A stretch of 26,714 bases of DNA, from positions 1-26,714 of the forward strand of contig CAYUHI010000003.1 of assembly GCA_964444485.1 (NCBI GenBank). The letters run 5' to 3'. The stretch is from an uncultured Gammaproteobacteria bacterium. Its GTDB lineage: Bacteria; Patescibacteriota; Microgenomatia; UBA1406; GWC2-37-13. The notes beneath the pieces were generated by a model. That model ran no database searches. It was not told where the DNA came from and saw nothing but the letters and a program-made list of their open reading frames with translations. Each line of letters opens with the position of its first letter. The first letter of the stretch is position 1. The translations under genes were made by a program, and so were the position numbers. Shown here in pieces: positions 2,381 to 23,100 of this stretch.

Positions 2381-2396
2381 ATATGTACATTATATG
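2378..2396. promoter_or_regulatory. Near-perfect palindrome over the -10 box and start codon; candidate AbiEi operator
   Basis: CATATA-TGTACA-T-TATATG is a perfect palindrome apart from one extra T. AbiEi antitoxins are known to autorepress through promoter inverted repeats. Confidence 0.5.
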
Positions 2397-2417
2397 ACTA
2401 CGGCATATGTTTGTCAA
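2389..2417 (-). promoter_or_regulatory. Consensus sigma70 promoter of the abiE operon
   Basis: Minus strand TTGACA (2417-2412), 17 nt, TATAAT (2394-2389). Only 8 nt separate the -10 box from the ATG. Confidence 0.85.
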
Positions 2418-2424
2418 TCACTTA

Positions 2425-2559
2425 CAGAAGTTACGCATTTATCCTTCGAGTGGAGCGCCGTAAAGGGCGGAGTCGAGAAGTTTGCCATAACAGTTCTCGA
2501 CTTAGTTTAAAGTGAGCTTGTCGAGCCACTCGAACAATAACTATCTTGCGTAAGATCTG
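2425..2559. mobile_element. MITE-like element E1 (135 bp): 13-bp imperfect TIRs, 7-bp target-site duplication
   Basis: Ends CAGAAGTTACGCA / TGCGTAAGATCTG (11/13 complementary). Flanked by TCACTTA at 2418-2424 and 2560-2566. Internal stems TTCGAGTGG/CCACTCGAA and AGTCGAGAA/TTCTCGACT. Homologous to 14763-14892. Confidence 0.85.
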
Positions 2560-2572
2560 TCACTTATATACA

Positions 2573-14736: not shown

Positions 14737-14762
14737 ACCGAATCAATAAACTTTATAAATAA

Positions 14763-14892
14763 CAGAAGTTACGCATTTATTCTTCGAGTGGAGCGCTGTA
14801 AAGCGCGAAATCGAGAAGCTTACCTGAAAGTTCTCGACTCGTGACGCAGAGCGTCACACCGCTCGAACAGTAACTATTTTGCGTAAGTACTG
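14763..14892. mobile_element. MITE-like element E2 (130 bp), same family as E1
   Basis: Ends CAGAAGTTACGCA / TGCGTAAGTACTG. TAAATAA duplicated at 14756-14762 and 14893-14899. 50/55 nt identical to E1 at the left end and 29/34 at the right end. Confidence 0.85.
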
Positions 14893-14899
14893 TAAATAA

Positions 14900-15033
14900 T
14901 AGATCTTAACGCCTAAAATAGGGTCTTATATTGTCATTGCAATCCTGCGCTAGCCGAAGGAGAAGCAATCTCATAAAAATCATGAATTAGATTGCCGCGT
15001 CGCTCCGCTCCTCGCAATGACGCATAAGTACTG
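14900..15033. mobile_element. MITE-like element E3 (134 bp): degenerate E1/E2-type ends around a different REP-like palindrome
   Basis: Left end TAGATCTTAACGC, right end GCATAAGTACTG. TAAATAA on both sides (14893-14899, 15034-15040). Internal GTCATTGC (14933-14940)/GCAATGAC (15014-15021) and GCAATCT (14965-14971)/AGATTGC (14989-14995). Confidence 0.7.
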
Positions 15034-19929: not shown

Positions 19930-20115
19930 ATGTGAAACACCGGATAGTGATATGGGCAATTTGTTAAGAGTGTGATCTTACTGGTGTGTCATCTTGGATA
20001 GTCTCAGAGCCTTAAAAATGACGATGTGTCCTGTCTATTTTAGAGACGAACATAGCAATCTGACCAGTATATCAAATATATTTAAAAGCACGTAGCATCG
20101 CAGAAATTCAAGAAG

Positions 20116-23100
20116 TTAATTTACGATCATCCACTGGAACTCAATATCTTCGCTTGCGGGAGCTGCGATGGTGACAACGAACCCGACACCCGGTATCTTA
20201 CCGCTGACAAATATCGGTTTTGCGATGTAAGAAGTGGGCGTGATAAATACCATCGAATTTGCAGTCATGGCAGTGTTGTTTATCGCAATACCCAGCTCGC
20301 CAGCAGGTATGACTGCTGTTCCGATAGTCGTTTTGTTTACGTCTTGAGTATTCAGTTTAAGATGAGTCATCTCGACACTTCCGTCAACATCGATTACTAC
20401 TTTGCCCCCCATGAAGTCAATTGGTCCTTGTGCGAGAGTTTGGAATCTGATGCCACTTGATGAGTTTATCTCATCGCCGTCAACTCCTCCCCCAATCTCG
20501 ATGACTCCACTCGCAAGCTTATTAAGCACTGTGAGGTCGAACGTGGTGGTCTTTCCGCCAACCTGGAGATCGTCTTTCACCAGCAGTCCGGACACCGTGG
20601 CGTCACCCGCAAGCATTGCTGAGTTACTTGCACCCAGTACTCCTCCCCCACTCGCAATTGCTTCTTTCCAGGTTGCAAGGTCGATATTGACTTGTGCCAA
20701 AGATGCCGACATGGAAGCAATCTGGGTCTTATTTTCATCAACGTTAGTCTGTATAAGGGCTATGTCACCCACTATCGTCCCCAGTTGATTCTGGATCGCG
20801 ACAAATGTGTCCTGGATTGTCTGGACTATGGACTGTATGCCTGCGATAAGGTTGTCCCATGCGGTGACTGTAGTAGAGAGTTGGGCGAGCTGAGCACTCA
20901 TGCTCGCAATAGCAGTGTCTGGGGTGATACTACCTACGGTTGTTTGAATTGACGCGATCTCACCCTGCTGCTCTTGGATGGCTTTGGCCATAATGGGGAT
21001 GAGTCCAATGCTATTGAGCTGTTTGTACCCATATTTATCTGTCGTCACGAGGTCTGGCGCGACTTCAGCTACCTCCTGTGCGATGAAGCCAAGGTACTTC
21101 TTGCCATTTGCTCCTTGTGAGTTCCAGTTGAAGTCAACAGGTCTGAGGTTCATCACCGCATCGAGACCAAGATTACTATTCTCAATATTTTTCTTCAGGT
21201 TGCGATCGGAGCTACAAGCGATAACTCCCCCATCAGCCAATGTACATCCAGTGTTATTTGAGCCAGTGAAACGAGCGATGTCTGTGCCTGATGACTTCAC
21301 CTCAAGCTGATAAGCTGGGGCGGTTGTGCCGATACCTACATTTCCTCCTGCAAATATTGCTGCGTAGTTGGTATCTGCACCAGTAGGCGCCTCTACATAA
21401 AGCCCTATCTTTTTGGATGTGCCATTGGTGCCTGACGTACCATTCGCGACATAGAGACCATACTGATTGAGGGTGCCTGCATCGGCTGCGTGTGTTGCTG
21501 TAGTGGTGATGTACTCACCATATACGTTGGTTGTGCCTGCTGTCGCAAGCGTGGATGACGGAGCAGTGTAGGCTCCATAGAGATTAACCGTACCTCCACT
21601 TGAGCCAGCTGTTGAAACAGGCTGGTTGAAAAGTCCATAAATGGTACGTGTACCTGTTGTGATGGCGCCTGATATGGCAGCTTCTATGTCAAATGCCTTG
21701 TGAGTGTTTGCTGTGGTTGTTGAGTCTGAATAATTTACCAAAGTCGTTCCCTGATTGTACGTCTTGAATATCAGATTATTACTCTCCCAATTCTCTCCAG
21801 CTTCTATGGTGAGTGGTCCGTATGACTGTATACCTGACGATGTCTGGTTTGTCAGTATGAGATCGTACGCCATCGCAACATCTCCAGCTGCGGTAAACTC
21901 ATGAGGTATTGCTGATGTGATCTTCGTTTGGTCTACGCTGAATACTTCGGATCCATTGTCATAGAGTGCAAAGATATTGCCCACATTCCCATACTGACCA
22001 ACATCAATCTTGAACAGGTCTCCTGTGGCAAAGATTTCTGCAGCTCCACTGGGATTCCAGTACAGACTTGCAAGACTCCCGGAGGTGAGTCCTGTCGAAG
22101 TAGAGGTGAGGTTGAGTCCCTTGCCTGTGGTGAGACCGTTGAGCTCCATATTGAGGAAGTTACCGGTCGTGAGACTGGTTGACTGGAGATCTATGACACC
22201 GAGCGTGTTACCTCCATTACCTATGGTTGTCGCGGTGTTGTTAGTGAGAGTAAGTGAAGCTGCAGTATTCGAAGTATCTAAGACATCAAATTTGCCCGCT
22301 GGCGCTGTAGTTCCAACCCCTACCTTGTTATTCGCAAGATCGAGGACAAAAAGGTCATTAGCTGCTCCTCCTGCTTCTTCAAACTGAGCAAGATTCGCAT
22401 CTGTCGTGATAAGGAGACTCTTAGCAGAGGCAGTGGTGTCCTCCATCCTGAAGGTGGGGGCTGTTGAGGAGAGGGTTAGGAGTGATCCGGGTACTGTTGT
22501 ACCGATACCAACCTCTCCTGATGGTGTTAAAGTCATCTTAGTGTCAGAGATATCTGCATTTGAGCCATCGGAGGTGCTATCTAGTGCAAAATATAGGTTT
22601 TGTTTATGCCAATCATTCAGCCCATCCGCAATAATTGCGGCTTTATATGCATTTTGTACACCAAAATATATGGAGTTGTCTTTATCATCTCCTGAAGCAC
22701 CCAACTTCAAAGTAGATCCATTTGCGTTATACATATCTAGTGTTGCTCCTGGAGCTGTAGTACCGATACCCAGGTTACCAGAAAAGTAGCCTCCACCTCT
22801 AATATCTAGTGTTTGAACTGCCGAACTCGCTTGGCTTCCGACGACTAGTCCTGATGAAGTCACGCTTATCTCACCTGAGCTATCGTCGTCACCGTCTGGA
22901 CGCAATAAAAGTACTTTTCCAGTATTATTGTCTATCCCTGTTGATAATATATGATAGAGAGAACTTTCAACTCCTGAGAAGTAAGTTCTCGAACTGCCAA
23001 AATTTGCCTCTCCACCAGATATATCGAGTCTAAACGAAGGGCTTGTCGTCCCTATCCCCACATTCCCATCAGACGCACGTATGTACAGATCATCGGTGTT

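What the first reader, a model, noticed from the sequence alone, without database searches (positions are those of the whole stretch)
2418..2566. Unnamed MITE-like family: 13-bp TIRs, exact 7-bp TSDs and a conserved four-way-junction interior
Seen: E1 (2425-2559) and E2 (14763-14892) lie 12 kb apart, share CAG(A/T)(A/T)(C/G)TTACGCA-type ends, and each is flanked by its own different 7-bp direct repeat (TCACTTA; TAAATAA), the signature of independent insertions. Both fold as an outer TTCGAGTGG stem enclosing three hairpins. The third hairpin differs completely in sequence (GTGACGC-AGA-GCGTCAC in E2; AGTTT-AAAGT-GAGCT with G-U pairs in E1), suggesting selection on structure. Both sit in short intergenic gaps; E1 lies 13 nt after the giant-gene stop and directly against a -35 box. 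No transposase is encoded in this window.
Basis: seen in the sequence. Interest (0 to 1): 0.72.

Follow-up and report, generated by a model that had tools for sequence, protein, structure and literature searches.

The report
Two-layer miniature transposon in tiny bacterium
The flagged 135-base stretch is a gene-less jumping element of an ultra-small wastewater bacterium, made of short transposon ends wrapped around a second, older hairpin repeat that is spread across the whole candidate-phyla group; this is ordinary selfish DNA, not a new RNA gene.

Summary
E1 (2425-2559) and E2 (14763-14892) have 13-bp imperfect inverted ends and exact 7-bp flanking duplications. The 0.97-Mb genome, a Patescibacteria MAG by LeuRS relatives, holds about 13 copies. 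Five have perfect 7-bp duplications, against a chance rate of 6e-5.

It is a type II MITE, but in two layers.
- The outer layer is only the 13-nt ends, C..A..TTACGCA. These ends, the 7-bp duplication and the interior recur in MITEs of other Patescibacteria. They also bound a 1.17-kb insertion sequence whose transposase belongs to the IS4/IS701 superfamily. No such transposase was found in this genome.
- The "four-way junction" interior is a separate repeat, TATTCTTCGAG...CTCGAACAATA. It occurs 16 more times in this genome without the ends and in over 100 stretches across Patescibacteria and other phyla. It also sits inside an unrelated MITE type with 8-bp duplications.

In the interior, two stems never vary, hairpin 1 covaries and hairpin 3 is optional. 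I found no sign of an RNA-level role: no orientation bias, G-U equals A-C, both strands fold alike, and Rfam has no match.

This scan had already noted the E2/E3 stack on this window and similar nested hairpin MITEs in other CPR genomes.

The parts
2418..2424 (.). E1 left target-site duplication, TCACTTA
   Evidence: Identical 7-mer at 2560-2566. The null rate for a 7/7 match is 6e-5.
2425..2437 (+). E1 left terminal inverted repeat, CAGAAGTTACGCA (outer 'shell' layer)
   Evidence: Matches the reverse complement of 2547-2559 at 11 of 13 positions. C1, A4 and TTACGCA are shared with MITE and IS ends of other Patescibacteria.
2440..2539 (+). E1 interior: one copy of the widespread TTCGAG core repeat (TATCCTTCGAG...CTCGAACAATA)
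   Evidence: Covariance model R1 scores it at 79.5 bits. The same core occurs without the CAG ends at 16 other loci of this genome.
2445..2453 (+). Left arm of the core's outer stem, TTCGAGTGG; pairs with 2526-2534 (CCACTCGAA)
   Evidence: Fold. The TTCGAG/CTCGAA pairs are invariant in 75 distinct copies.
2456..2469 (+). Hairpin 1 (CGCC-GTAAAG-GGCG), the variable GC-rich hairpin
   Evidence: Fold. The pairs covary across the family, with GC 26, CG 24 and TA 13 at the first pair.
2472..2501 (+). Hairpin 2 (GTCGAGAA...TTCTCGAC), a sequence-invariant palindrome
   Evidence: Fold. The stem is 97-100% Watson-Crick at every pair and essentially invariant in sequence in 75 copies.
2504..2518 (+). Hairpin 3, E1 type (AGTTTA-AAG-TGAGCT); an optional module
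   Evidence: Fold. The module is shared with C13:15335, C36 and C7. It is replaced by GTGACGC-AGA-GCGTCAC in E2-type copies and has a full stem in only about 14 of 75 family members.
2547..2559 (-). E1 right terminal inverted repeat (TGCGTAAGATCTG; reads CAGATCTTACGCA on the minus strand)
2560..2566 (.). E1 right target-site duplication, TCACTTA
14756..14762 (.). E2 left target-site duplication, TAAATAA
14763..14775 (+). E2 left TIR, CAGAAGTTACGCA
   Evidence: Contigs of other runs diverge from the window exactly at 14762/14763 (table 7).
14778..14872 (+). E2 interior: TTCGAG core repeat with hairpins at 14793-14806, 14811-14837 and 14841-14857
   Evidence: R1 scores it at 105.2 bits. Fold.
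14880..14892 (-). E2 right TIR (TGCGTAAGTACTG)
   Evidence: Loose ends of contigs from other runs start at 14892/14893.
14893..14899 (.). E2 right target-site duplication, TAAATAA; also the left duplication of the neighbouring element E3
14900..15033 (+). E3: a second MITE with related ends (TAGATCTTAACGC... / ...GCATAAGTACTG) and a different cargo (GTCATTGC... hairpin)
   Evidence: Similar GTCAT-type cargo in G206 MITEs fits the NTS consensus quoted in PMC11893778.

Best explanation
E1 and E2 are copies of a non-autonomous DNA transposon, a type II MITE, built in two layers.

**Outer layer.** It consists of little more than two 13-nt terminal inverted repeats, CAG(A/T)(A/T)(G/C)TTACGCA. A DDE transposase supplied in trans recognises these ends. 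It cuts an AT-rich target with a 7-nt stagger, inserts the element, and repair leaves the 7-bp duplication. By homology of the ends, that enzyme is a member of the IS4/IS701 superfamily. In related Patescibacteria the same C..A..TTACGCA ends, with the same 7-bp duplications, bound both MITEs and a 1.17-kb insertion sequence encoding such a transposase.

**Inner layer.** This is one copy of an independent palindromic repeat of about 70-100 bp, TA-TTCTTCGAG...CTCGAACAA-TA. It is dispersed on its own in this genome and across Patescibacteria, and it became enclosed between the MITE ends. It is now carried along as cargo. Its two invariant palindromes, TTCGAG/CTCGAA and TCGAGAA/TTCTCGA, are most likely protein recognition sites on DNA. 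Hairpin 1 is kept only as a hairpin, and hairpin 3 is an optional inserted module.

**Shown:** ends, duplications, copy number, recent copies, the nested architecture, and the autonomous relative elsewhere.

**Inferred:** which transposase moves the CAG-ended copies, how the core itself spreads, and which protein reads it.
For: **Copies and duplications**
- About 13 copies with CAG-type ends lie in the 0.97-Mb genome.
- Perfect 7-bp TSDs: TCACTTA, TAAATAA, GTGTTTA, TTATTTA, and TAAACTA across the ends of contigs C4 and C21. C27:588 has a 6-bp one. The null rate for 7/7 is 6e-5.
- E2 is 100% identical to the C21/C4 copy and 99% to C27:588, each in different flanks, so transposition was recent.
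- In four other metagenome runs, contigs diverge from the window exactly at the element termini.
- The orthologous intergenic spacers of two congeners (G009, G006) are short and hold no element.

**Nested architecture**
- Model R1 finds 29 loci in G000. Sixteen lack the CAG ends, and their similarity stops sharply at TATT...AATA.
- Around 74 cores, the flanking TATT is 88-96% conserved, CAATA 84-96%, and the A after it 74%. Beyond these, conservation falls to background.
- The core also sits inside a second, unrelated shell, GTAACCGTTCAGG..., with perfect 8-bp TSDs.
- Both shells also carry other cargo.

**Partner transposase**
- MITEs in G206 and G205 have ends CTCA(T/C)(G/C)TTACGCA, the same core, and 7-bp TSDs TTATCTA, ATACTAA, TTAATTA, TAAATAA and TTATTAA.
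- They align with E1 and E2 over their whole length.
- Contig L299 holds CTCACCTTACGCA...TGCGTAAGGTGAG around a 365-aa ORF. That ORF hits NCBIfam IS701_2 at 336.7 bits (cut-off 250), plus Pfam DDE_5 and DDE_Tnp_1.
- The same two ends terminate six contigs of MAG G208.
- A 7-8-bp TSD and a preference for AT-rich targets are the published traits of the ISPepr1 subgroup of IS4. Its end consensus, YT-AA-YTT---A, is met by the G000 ends at 6 of 8 positions (PMC2266710).

**DNA rather than RNA**
- Core orientation relative to co-directional flanking genes is 17 the same and 14 opposite.
- G-U 25 against A-C 25 outside one fixed T.G position; 7 against 6 in hairpin 1.
- Both strands fold equally well.
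- Rfam has no match.
Against: - No transposase with these ends was found in G000. Pfam DDE_Tnp_1, DDE_3, IS1595, Y1_Tnp and TnpB gave nothing.
- The only rve-like gene belongs to an IS1202-like element with TGTTA ends and an 18-bp duplication.
- The L299 transposase has no homologue in G000 or in 40 relatives. The MAG is only 83% complete.
- The G000 ends share only 9 of 13 positions with the IS ends (C1, A4 and TTACGCA). The outer six bases differ at four positions.
- NCBIfam places the transposase in IS701, a family whose classical TSD is 4 bp.
- The single complete IS copy has no clean TSD: TTATTAA against TTAGGTA.
- No exact empty-site allele was recovered.
- Nesting is inferred from distribution. 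No shell-only copy was found.
- The palindromic TA at the core's edges cannot be told apart from part of its inverted repeat.
Confidence: 0.72

Rival explanations
1. The interior is a structured non-coding RNA, a four-way-junction RNA gene or cis-regulatory element. It is selected at the RNA level and merely rides on a mobile element.
For: - Stable predicted folds, z -4.9 and -5.6.
- Covariation above shuffled and slid controls in hairpins 1 and 3: 10 pairs with changes on both sides against 4.7 +/- 1.4, and score 0.137 against 0.088.
- A T.G 'wobble' at one outer-stem position in 54 of 75 copies.
- Very wide conservation of the core.
Against: - The reverse strands fold as well, z -5.4 and -4.6.
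- Apart from the single fixed T.G, which is an inherited left/right end difference, G-U equals A-C at 25 each.
- Orientation relative to co-directional genes is 17 to 14.
- The two best-conserved stems never covary.
- Hairpin 3 is optional, so the four-way junction is not a family feature.
- Rfam has no hit even at E up to 10.
- No terminator-like site was found.
Confidence: 0.07
2. The element has one layer, not two. The core is the original interior of a single ancestral MITE, and the 'naked' cores are old copies whose outer ends have decayed.
For: - The TTACGCA ends and the core occur together in several distant genomes: G000, G205, G206, G207 and G007.
- No shell-only copy was found.
- Some G000 and G007 copies do show decayed ends: C70, C16, C15 and G007:C91.
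Against: - Naked cores in the same genome (C81, C15:18446, C5) have closely similar sequences, yet share nothing beyond TATT/AATA.
- Across 74 copies, conservation drops to background right outside those bases.
- The same core lies inside an unrelated shell with a different TSD length of 8 bp.
- The TTACGCA shell carries at least three unrelated cargos.
Confidence: 0.1
3. The core, though not the CAG ends, is a REP/REPIN-like or Ssn-related hairpin repeat. It would be maintained or spread by a single-strand-specific enzyme, either a Y1 (RAYT-type) transposase or a small GIY-YIG Ssn-type nuclease, rather than by a DDE transposase. This can be true together with the main explanation.
For: - The genome holds 9 small GIY-YIG genes.
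- Their 3' flanks carry GTCCCGC-loop-GCGGGGGAATC. This resembles hairpin 1 plus GAATC of several naked cores, GACCCCGC-loop-GCGGGGGAATCGAG. It also resembles the NTS consensus ...GCGGGAATCYRG (PMC11893778).
- One locus, L179, has a GIY-YIG gene between direct copies of the core.
- Y1_Tnp-like genes of about 220 aa occur in the core-rich genomes G021, G149 and G007.
- No IS630-type transposase is present to explain the TA flanks.
Against: - Only 4 GIY-YIG genes lie in 530 kb around 80 cores, which is the background density.
- Core-free genomes of the family hold 6-16 GIY-YIG matches each.
- Y1_Tnp is found in 12 of 16 core-positive and 80 of 135 core-negative genomes, which does not discriminate.
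- The Y1 genes examined have no core next to them.
- G000 has no Y1_Tnp match.
- Hairpin 1 is highly variable and mostly unlike the NTS.
Confidence: 0.15

Closest known systems
Prokaryotic type II MITEs (similarity to an IS confined to the TIRs), e.g. QMITE2 of Coxiella (DRs 7-9 bp), Correia/NEMIS, RUP; reviewed in PMC10969869
   Same: - Short (130-135 bp) and non-coding.
- Terminal inverted repeats and a fixed-length target duplication.
- AT-rich intergenic targets and many dispersed copies.
- A stable predicted stem-loop fold.
   Different: - The part shared with the IS is only 13 nt per end.
- The conserved part is the interior rather than the ends. That interior is itself an independent repeat found across a whole phylum-level group and inside other MITE types.
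IS4 family, ISPepr1 subgroup, and the related IS701 family (De Palmenaer et al. 2008, PMC2266710)
   Same: - The autonomous relative (L299) encodes a DDE transposase with a Y-2-R-3-E-6-K motif, read from the translation YQKRWKIEEYHKSIK.
- Its ends begin 5'-CT.
- The matching MITEs make 7-bp duplications in AT-rich targets, as described for ISPepr1 (DR 7-8, AT-rich, CT ends).
- NCBIfam names the protein IS701 family, above the cut-off.
   Different: - Classical IS701 elements make exactly 4-bp duplications and mostly lack the YREK tyrosine. The family label and the behaviour therefore disagree.
- The IS is shorter (about 1.17 kb) than the published ranges of 1.4-1.6 kb.
- The G000 MITE ends begin CA, not CT, and their own IS was not found.
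REP/REPIN and CGTC- or GTAG-tagged palindromic repeats (Di Nocera et al. 2013, PMC3733652)
   Same: For the inner core: a small intergenic palindromic repeat, often nested or paired, widespread, and without an adjacent transposase.
   Different: - The core is longer (about 55-135 bp in this genome) and composite, with two invariant palindromes plus a variable hairpin.
- As I read the sequence, its ends are TATTCTTCGAG/CTCGAACAATA, with no terminal GTAG or CGTC tag.
- No RAYT gene flanked by cores was seen.
Ssn nucleases with their NTS/SRM hairpin repeats (Chenal et al. 2025, PMC11893778)
   Same: - The alternative cargo of the same MITE shell (E3 here; GTCATTCCCGCG...GCGGGAATCC in G206) fits the NTS consensus CGTCATTCCCGCGMAVGCGGGAATCYRG.
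- The genome has 9 small GIY-YIG genes.
   Different: The E1/E2 core does not fit the NTS consensus. It shows no enrichment next to GIY-YIG genes and no link between its presence and theirs.

Membership tests
Prokaryotic MITE (type II) | Short (under about 300 bp) and without a coding frame | tested here: met
   Elements are 130-135 bp (170 bp with an insert in C36). No ORF of 80 aa or more lies inside them.
Prokaryotic MITE (type II) | Terminal inverted repeats | tested here: met
   13-nt ends, matching at 11 of 13 positions in both E1 and E2.
Prokaryotic MITE (type II) | Target-site duplication of fixed length, different at each copy | tested here: met
   Five perfect 7-bp TSDs and one 6-bp TSD among about 10 complete copies. 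The null rate for 7/7 is 6e-5. Decayed copies lack them.
Prokaryotic MITE (type II) | Multiple dispersed copies, some nearly identical | tested here: met
   About 13 copies; 100% and 99% identical copies lie in different flanks.
Prokaryotic MITE (type II) | Ends shared with an autonomous IS that can act in trans | tested here: inconclusive
   An IS with CTCACCTTACGCA ends and an IS4/IS701-type transposase exists in other Patescibacteria. It shares 9 of 13 positions with the G000 ends. No IS with CAG-type ends was found, and G000 has no homologue.
Prokaryotic MITE (type II) | Presence/absence polymorphism (empty sites) | tested here: inconclusive
   Two congeners lack any element at the orthologous spacer, but they are only 49-61% identical in the flanking protein.
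IS701 family (as the mobilising IS) | Transposase matches the family profile above its curated cut-off | tested here: met
   L299:173-1270:- scores 336.7 bits on NF049921 against a cut-off of 250. This is the relative's IS, not one from G000.
IS701 family (as the mobilising IS) | Target duplication of exactly 4 bp (PMC2266710) | tested here: not met
   MITEs with these ends have 7-bp TSDs in G000, G205 and G206.
IS4 family, ISPepr1 subgroup (as the mobilising IS) | YREK motif, DR of 7-8 bp, AT-rich targets, end consensus YT-AA-YTT---A | tested here: inconclusive
   The YREK spacing is present in the L299 protein. TSDs are 7 bp and AT-rich. The ends match 6 of 8 consensus positions. However, the best profile hit is IS701_2; IS4_4 reaches only 98.9 bits against a cut-off of 250.
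Any Rfam RNA family | Match to a curated covariance model | tested here: not met
   No match at gathering score over the whole window. Only chance-level hits (E above 5) at both elements.
REP/REPIN mobilised by a RAYT | Terminal GTAG or CGTC tag, and a RAYT gene flanked by the repeats | tested here: not met
   No such tag at the core ends on reading. Y1_Tnp-like genes of G021, G149 and G007 have no core beside them. G000 has none.
Ssn-related motif (SRM/NTS) | Fits CGTCATTCCCGCGMAVGCGGGAATCYRG and clusters around ssn (GIY-YIG) genes | tested here: not met
   The E1/E2 core does not fit the consensus. Only 4 GIY-YIG genes lie in 530 kb around 80 cores. The alternative cargo of the same shell does fit it.
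IS630/Tc1-mariner-derived MITE (for the naked core) | TA target duplication and an IS630-type transposase in the genome | tested here: inconclusive
   TA flanks both ends in 92-96% of 74 cores. TA is palindromic, so it may be part of the inverted repeat. No DDE_3 match in 5 core-bearing genomes.

The most novel reading that the evidence does not exclude
The TTCGAG core is not just cargo. It would be an undescribed mobile or functional DNA module that spans the whole Patescibacteria group. Its four invariant TCGAG-type half-sites, arranged as two palindromes around a free-form hairpin, would be read by a conserved protein not yet identified. Candidates are a single-strand-specific nuclease or transposase of the Ssn/GIY-YIG or Y1 kind. 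The module would insert repeatedly into the centre of unrelated MITEs, which would explain why the interior is better conserved than the ends.
Probability: 0.3. Interest if true: 0.6.

Novelty: new member of a known kind. Interest (0 to 1): 0.38.

Why it matters
On its own this is ordinary selfish DNA, and it should not be annotated as an RNA gene. It is still useful in three ways.

- It gives Patescibacteria, whose mobile elements are poorly catalogued, a defined MITE family. The family has known ends, a known duplication length and a candidate transposase lineage. That lineage is labelled IS701 but behaves like the ISPepr1 subgroup of IS4.
- MITE interiors in these tiny genomes are assembled from a small set of widely shared palindromic modules: the TTCGAG core and Ssn-type hairpins. 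This matters for repeat masking, for MAG assembly breaks (contigs C4, C21 and C7 end in the element) and for screens for structured RNAs. Such screens will keep flagging these modules.
- The extreme conservation of the TTCGAG core across classes points to an unidentified DNA-binding or DNA-cutting partner that could be found experimentally.

Locally, E1 sits between the stop of a giant surface-protein gene and the -35 box of the abiE toxin-antitoxin promoter. It may therefore affect read-through into that operon.

Tried and rejected
- **Rfam:** gathering thresholds on the window and E up to 10 on both elements gave nothing.
- **Autonomous element in G000, by sequence:** I scanned for the ends with up to 2 mismatches, for loose end motifs paired with 6-7/7 TSDs, and for generic inverted repeats. 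The only long candidates (C9:5770-7581, C16:6136-8867) cut through ORFs and are chance. Solo ends at C8:2711 and C108:1563 have no transposase nearby.
- **Autonomous element in G000, by protein family:** PF01609, PF13358, PF01797, PF07282 and PF12762 gave no match in G000. PF00665 gave only a weak hit, below cut-off, to the IS1202-like ISNCY element, which has unrelated ends. The DDE_Tnp_1 transposases of G006 and G009 lack the ends.
- **TIR scan of the family:** CAGWWSTTACGCAW in 189 genomes gave 15 hits in G000 and 6 single hits elsewhere, against 7 for the reversed control. The CAG form is therefore essentially specific to this species. Two of the single hits, in G007 and G174, are shells with other cargo.
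- **GIY-YIG link for the core:** rejected at the level tested.
- **Y1_Tnp link:** not informative.
- **Recurrent neighbouring proteins:** clustering ORFs around 80 cores revealed no recurrent transposase.
- **Shell-only copies:** none in G000 or in 80 loci.
- **Interior of the IS in G208:** not in that MAG.
- **Empty sites from public runs:** contigs were too fragmented. One 184-bp skip across E1 in run X17 is a replacement with only 26 nt on one side, so I do not count it.
- **Literature:** searches for GIY-YIG with MITE and for MITE with Patescibacteria found nothing relevant.
- The 84-85% identical relatives of the neighbouring gene could not be inspected for exact empty sites.
Full report

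Yes. E1 occupies 2425-2559 and E2 occupies 14763-14892. Both begin CAGAAGTTACGCA and end TGCGTAAG(AT/TA)CTG. They are flanked by exact 7-bp direct repeats, TCACTTA and TAAATAA. The two align at 83% column identity and differ mainly in the third hairpin.

Both fold into an outer stem enclosing three hairpins, with z-scores of -4.9 and -5.6. Their reverse complements fold just as well, at -5.4 and -4.6. E1 ends 13 nt from the stop of the 3591-aa ORF. Its left duplication touches the -35 hexamer of a 12/12 consensus promoter on the minus strand, at 2417->2389, upstream of the abiEi/abiEii pair.

**2. The family in this genome.**

The window is contig C3 of a 970,599-bp, 114-contig assembly with 83% completeness. 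The nearest named LeuRS relatives are Patescibacteria. The DNA recurs in wastewater and activated-sludge runs.

BLAST finds about 13 copies. Their flanks give these duplications:
- TCACTTA, TAAATAA, GTGTTTA and TTATTTA at single-contig copies;
- TAAACTA for a copy split between the ends of contigs C4 and C21;
- a 6-bp TATAAG at C27:588;
- a 5/7 match at C13:15335.

Copies with decayed ends (C27:5747, C36, C70) have no duplication. In 200,000 random trials on this genome, a 7/7 match at this spacing occurred at 6e-5.

E2 is 100% identical to the C21/C4 copy and 99% to C27:588, each in unrelated flanks, so transposition was recent. Three contigs end inside the element. When contigs of four other public runs are laid on the window, those from other copies diverge exactly at 14762/14763 and 14892/14893. 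This is independent support for the termini.

**3. The interior is a separate element.**

I built a covariance model of the interior alone (R1; 96 positions, 31 pairs). It finds 29 loci in G000. Sixteen of them lack the CAG ends. These 'naked' copies all start TA(T/C)(T/C/G)(C/G)TTCGAG and end CTCGAA(C/G)A(A/G)TA. Even closely similar copies (C81, C15:18446, C5:25428) share nothing beyond those bases.

I then scanned one genome per species for the exact pattern CTTCGAG..RAATCGAGAAG..TTCTCGAC. The hits lie in:
- Paceibacterota, Roizman-, Levy-, Curtiss-, Gottesman-, Yanofsky- and Doudnabacteria;
- Gracilibacteria, Peribacterales, Saccharibacteria and CPR2;
- MAGs titled Gammaproteobacteria, Eisenbacteria and Babeliales, and one Woesearchaeota MAG.

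The hits in Sphingomonas and Winogradskyella lack the other features and look like chance. Around 74 such cores, the four bases TATT before CTTCGAG are 88-96% conserved. After CTCGAA, CAATA is 84-96% conserved and the following A 74%. Conservation then falls to background.

Within the family of G000, 16 of 151 genomes in 8 of 63 genera hold the core. The CAG-type ends are essentially confined to G000: 15 hits there, and 6 single hits in 188 other genomes, against 7 hits for the reversed control.

**4. The same core sits in different shells, and the same shell holds different cargos.**

In other Patescibacteria the core is enclosed by GTAACCGTTCAGG... inverted repeats with perfect 8-bp duplications: CAAAAAAC, TTAAATTC, ATTCCCCT and AAGTAATC.

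In G205 and G206 it is enclosed by CTCA(T/C)(G/C)TTACGCA ends with 7-bp duplications: TTATTAA, TTATCTA and TTAATTA. Shells with other cargo give ATACTAA and TAAATAA. In G206 the same ends also enclose a GGTTCTGG...CCAGAAAC palindrome and GTCATTCCCGCG...GCGGGAATCC. The latter fits the NTS consensus of the Ssn system.

E3 in this window (14900-15033) and one element in G007 are further shells with GTCAT-type cargo. E1 and E2 align with the G205 and G206 MITEs over their whole length. The outer six bases of each end differ at four positions.

I therefore read E1 and E2 as two layers: a shell made only of 13-nt ends, and a nested core. I found no shell-only copy, so the order of events is inferred.

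**5. The partner transposase.**

In the Saccharibacteria MAG G208, six contigs end about 40 bp after CTCACCTTACGCA. They fall into two sequence types, as expected for the two ends of a multi-copy IS. A metagenome contig, L299, carries both ends around a 365-aa ORF. The element runs from CTCACCTTACGCACTAAC... to ...GGTTGGTGCGTAAGGTGAG and is about 1.17 kb long.

The protein hits NCBIfam IS701_2 at 336.7 bits (cut-off 250) and Pfam DDE_5 and DDE_Tnp_1. Its translation contains YQKRWKIEEYHKSIK, which has the Y-2-R-3-E-6-K spacing.

According to De Palmenaer et al. (PMC2266710):
- IS701 elements make exactly 4-bp duplications and mostly lack the YREK tyrosine;
- the ISPepr1 subgroup of IS4 makes 7-8-bp duplications in AT-rich DNA, starts 5'-CT, and has the end consensus YT-AA-YTT---A.

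The behaviour seen here fits ISPepr1 better than classical IS701. I therefore name only the IS4/IS701 superfamily.

G000 holds no homologue, and neither do 40 relatives. Six Pfam transposase families were searched in G000. Five gave no match. PF00665 gave only a weak, below-cut-off hit to an IS1202-like ISNCY element, which has TGTTA ends and an 18-bp duplication. The partner of the CAG-ended copies therefore remains inferred.

**6. Structure: what is conserved, and at what level?**

On 14 copies from G000 and its relatives, 89.8% of cells pair. Ten pairs show changes on both sides, against 4.7 +/- 1.4 in shuffles, and slid controls score far lower.

On 75 distinct cores from many lineages, aligned to the model and so leaning towards it:
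- TTCGAG/CTCGAA and TCGAGAA/TTCTCGA are essentially invariant;
- hairpin 1 changes freely while staying paired (GC 26, CG 24, TA 13 at its first pair);
- hairpin 3 has a full stem in only about 14 of 75.

Many family members have just AAG or TTCG in place of hairpin 3. In E1-type copies, the segment GAGCTTGTCGAG is the reverse complement of the common CTCGACAAGCTC junction. C36 carries a further inserted TCGAG...CTCGA mini-palindrome at the same place. The E1/E2 difference in hairpin 3 is therefore module replacement, not compensatory evolution.

One outer-stem position is T.G in 54 of 75 copies. This is a fixed left/right difference of the core's own inverted repeat. Elsewhere G-U and A-C are equal at 25 each, and 7 against 6 in hairpin 1. 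Core orientation relative to co-directional flanking genes is 17 the same and 14 opposite. Nothing indicates an RNA-level role. The invariant palindromes look like protein recognition sites on DNA.

**7. What moves or reads the core?**

This is unresolved.
- TA flanks would suit an IS630-type enzyme, but none is present in five core-bearing genomes.
- Small GIY-YIG genes are plentiful, 9 in G000. Their 3' hairpins resemble hairpin 1 of some cores. However, these genes are not enriched near cores and are as common in core-free genomes.
- Y1_Tnp-like genes occur in 92 of 151 genomes of the family and do not track the core.

**8. Comparison with earlier notes of this scan.**

An earlier report on this window (e1-5304831) called E2/E3 two stacked type II MITEs and tied E3's cargo to GIY-YIG nucleases. 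My results agree and add the partner IS lineage and the distribution of the core. Other notes describe nested hairpin MITEs in other CPR genomes (e1-3764516, e1-5330260, e1-1055903). One of them (e1-1210106) led me to the Ssn paper.

**9. Verdict.**

This is a real but ordinary MITE: a new member of a known kind. Its 'four-way junction' is a nested, phylum-wide palindromic repeat and not a structured RNA. The open and moderately interesting question is what protein recognises that repeat.

Noticed in passing
L102 (G000:C26:4363-7572; gene at C26:5863-6072), L252:400-720 (G000:C10), G000:C46:4980-5660, G000:C21:5134-5469: G000 has 9 small (83-135 aa) GIY-YIG genes. Several lie inside or directly beside tRNA genes, with the tRNA 3' part duplicated on both sides (for example ...gttcgaatctcgccacctccgca before and ...gggggaatctcgccacctccgca after). 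Two sit in tandem within one tRNA-like sequence on C46. They look like small nuclease cassettes that target tRNA genes.
   Followed up: partly
L252:861-2313 (G000:C10:~20009-21461): An IS1202-like ISNCY element. Its 429-aa transposase scores 172 bits on NF033594. It has TGTTA... inverted ends and an 18-bp direct repeat, AAGCCCGCTCATCCCCAT, on both sides, next to a GIY-YIG gene near the contig end.
   Followed up: partly
G016:C2:272-4396 (no locus fetched): A relative in the same family carries a tandem array of 12 identical GIY-YIG matches spaced exactly 357 bp apart at the start of a contig.
   Followed up: no
L132:3696-3828, L141:4026-4180, L156:2370-2492, L196:722-835: A second MITE type in other Patescibacteria, with GTAACCGTTCAGG... 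inverted ends and perfect 8-bp target duplications. It carries the same TTCGAG core, and in L162:2829-3018 a different hairpin cargo. From memory, GTAA ends with 8-bp duplications recall the IS66 family; I did not test this.
   Followed up: partly
L179:351-929: A GIY-YIG gene (523-819) sits between direct copies of the TTCGAG core, within a short array of core copies and core fragments.
   Followed up: no
window 2389-2417 (minus strand): A perfect 12/12 sigma-70 consensus promoter, TTGACA-17-TATAAT, lies in front of the abiEi/abiEii pair. The E1 duplication starts at the base next to its -35 hexamer.
   Followed up: partly
L147 (same sequence as G007:C91), L170 and other loci: Genomes of about 0.9-1.2 Mb carry record titles reading 'uncultured Gammaproteobacteria bacterium'. 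One of them is in the same genus as G000. The LeuRS of G000 is nearest to Patescibacteria, so these titles are probably mislabelled.
   Followed up: no
L243:1276-1941 (G021:C23) and many genomes: Stand-alone genes of about 215-250 aa, with a partial Y1_Tnp (HUH) domain covering profile positions about 37-119, occur in 92 of 151 genomes of this family, often in several copies. They are not flanked by the repeats studied here, and their role is unknown.
   Followed up: partly
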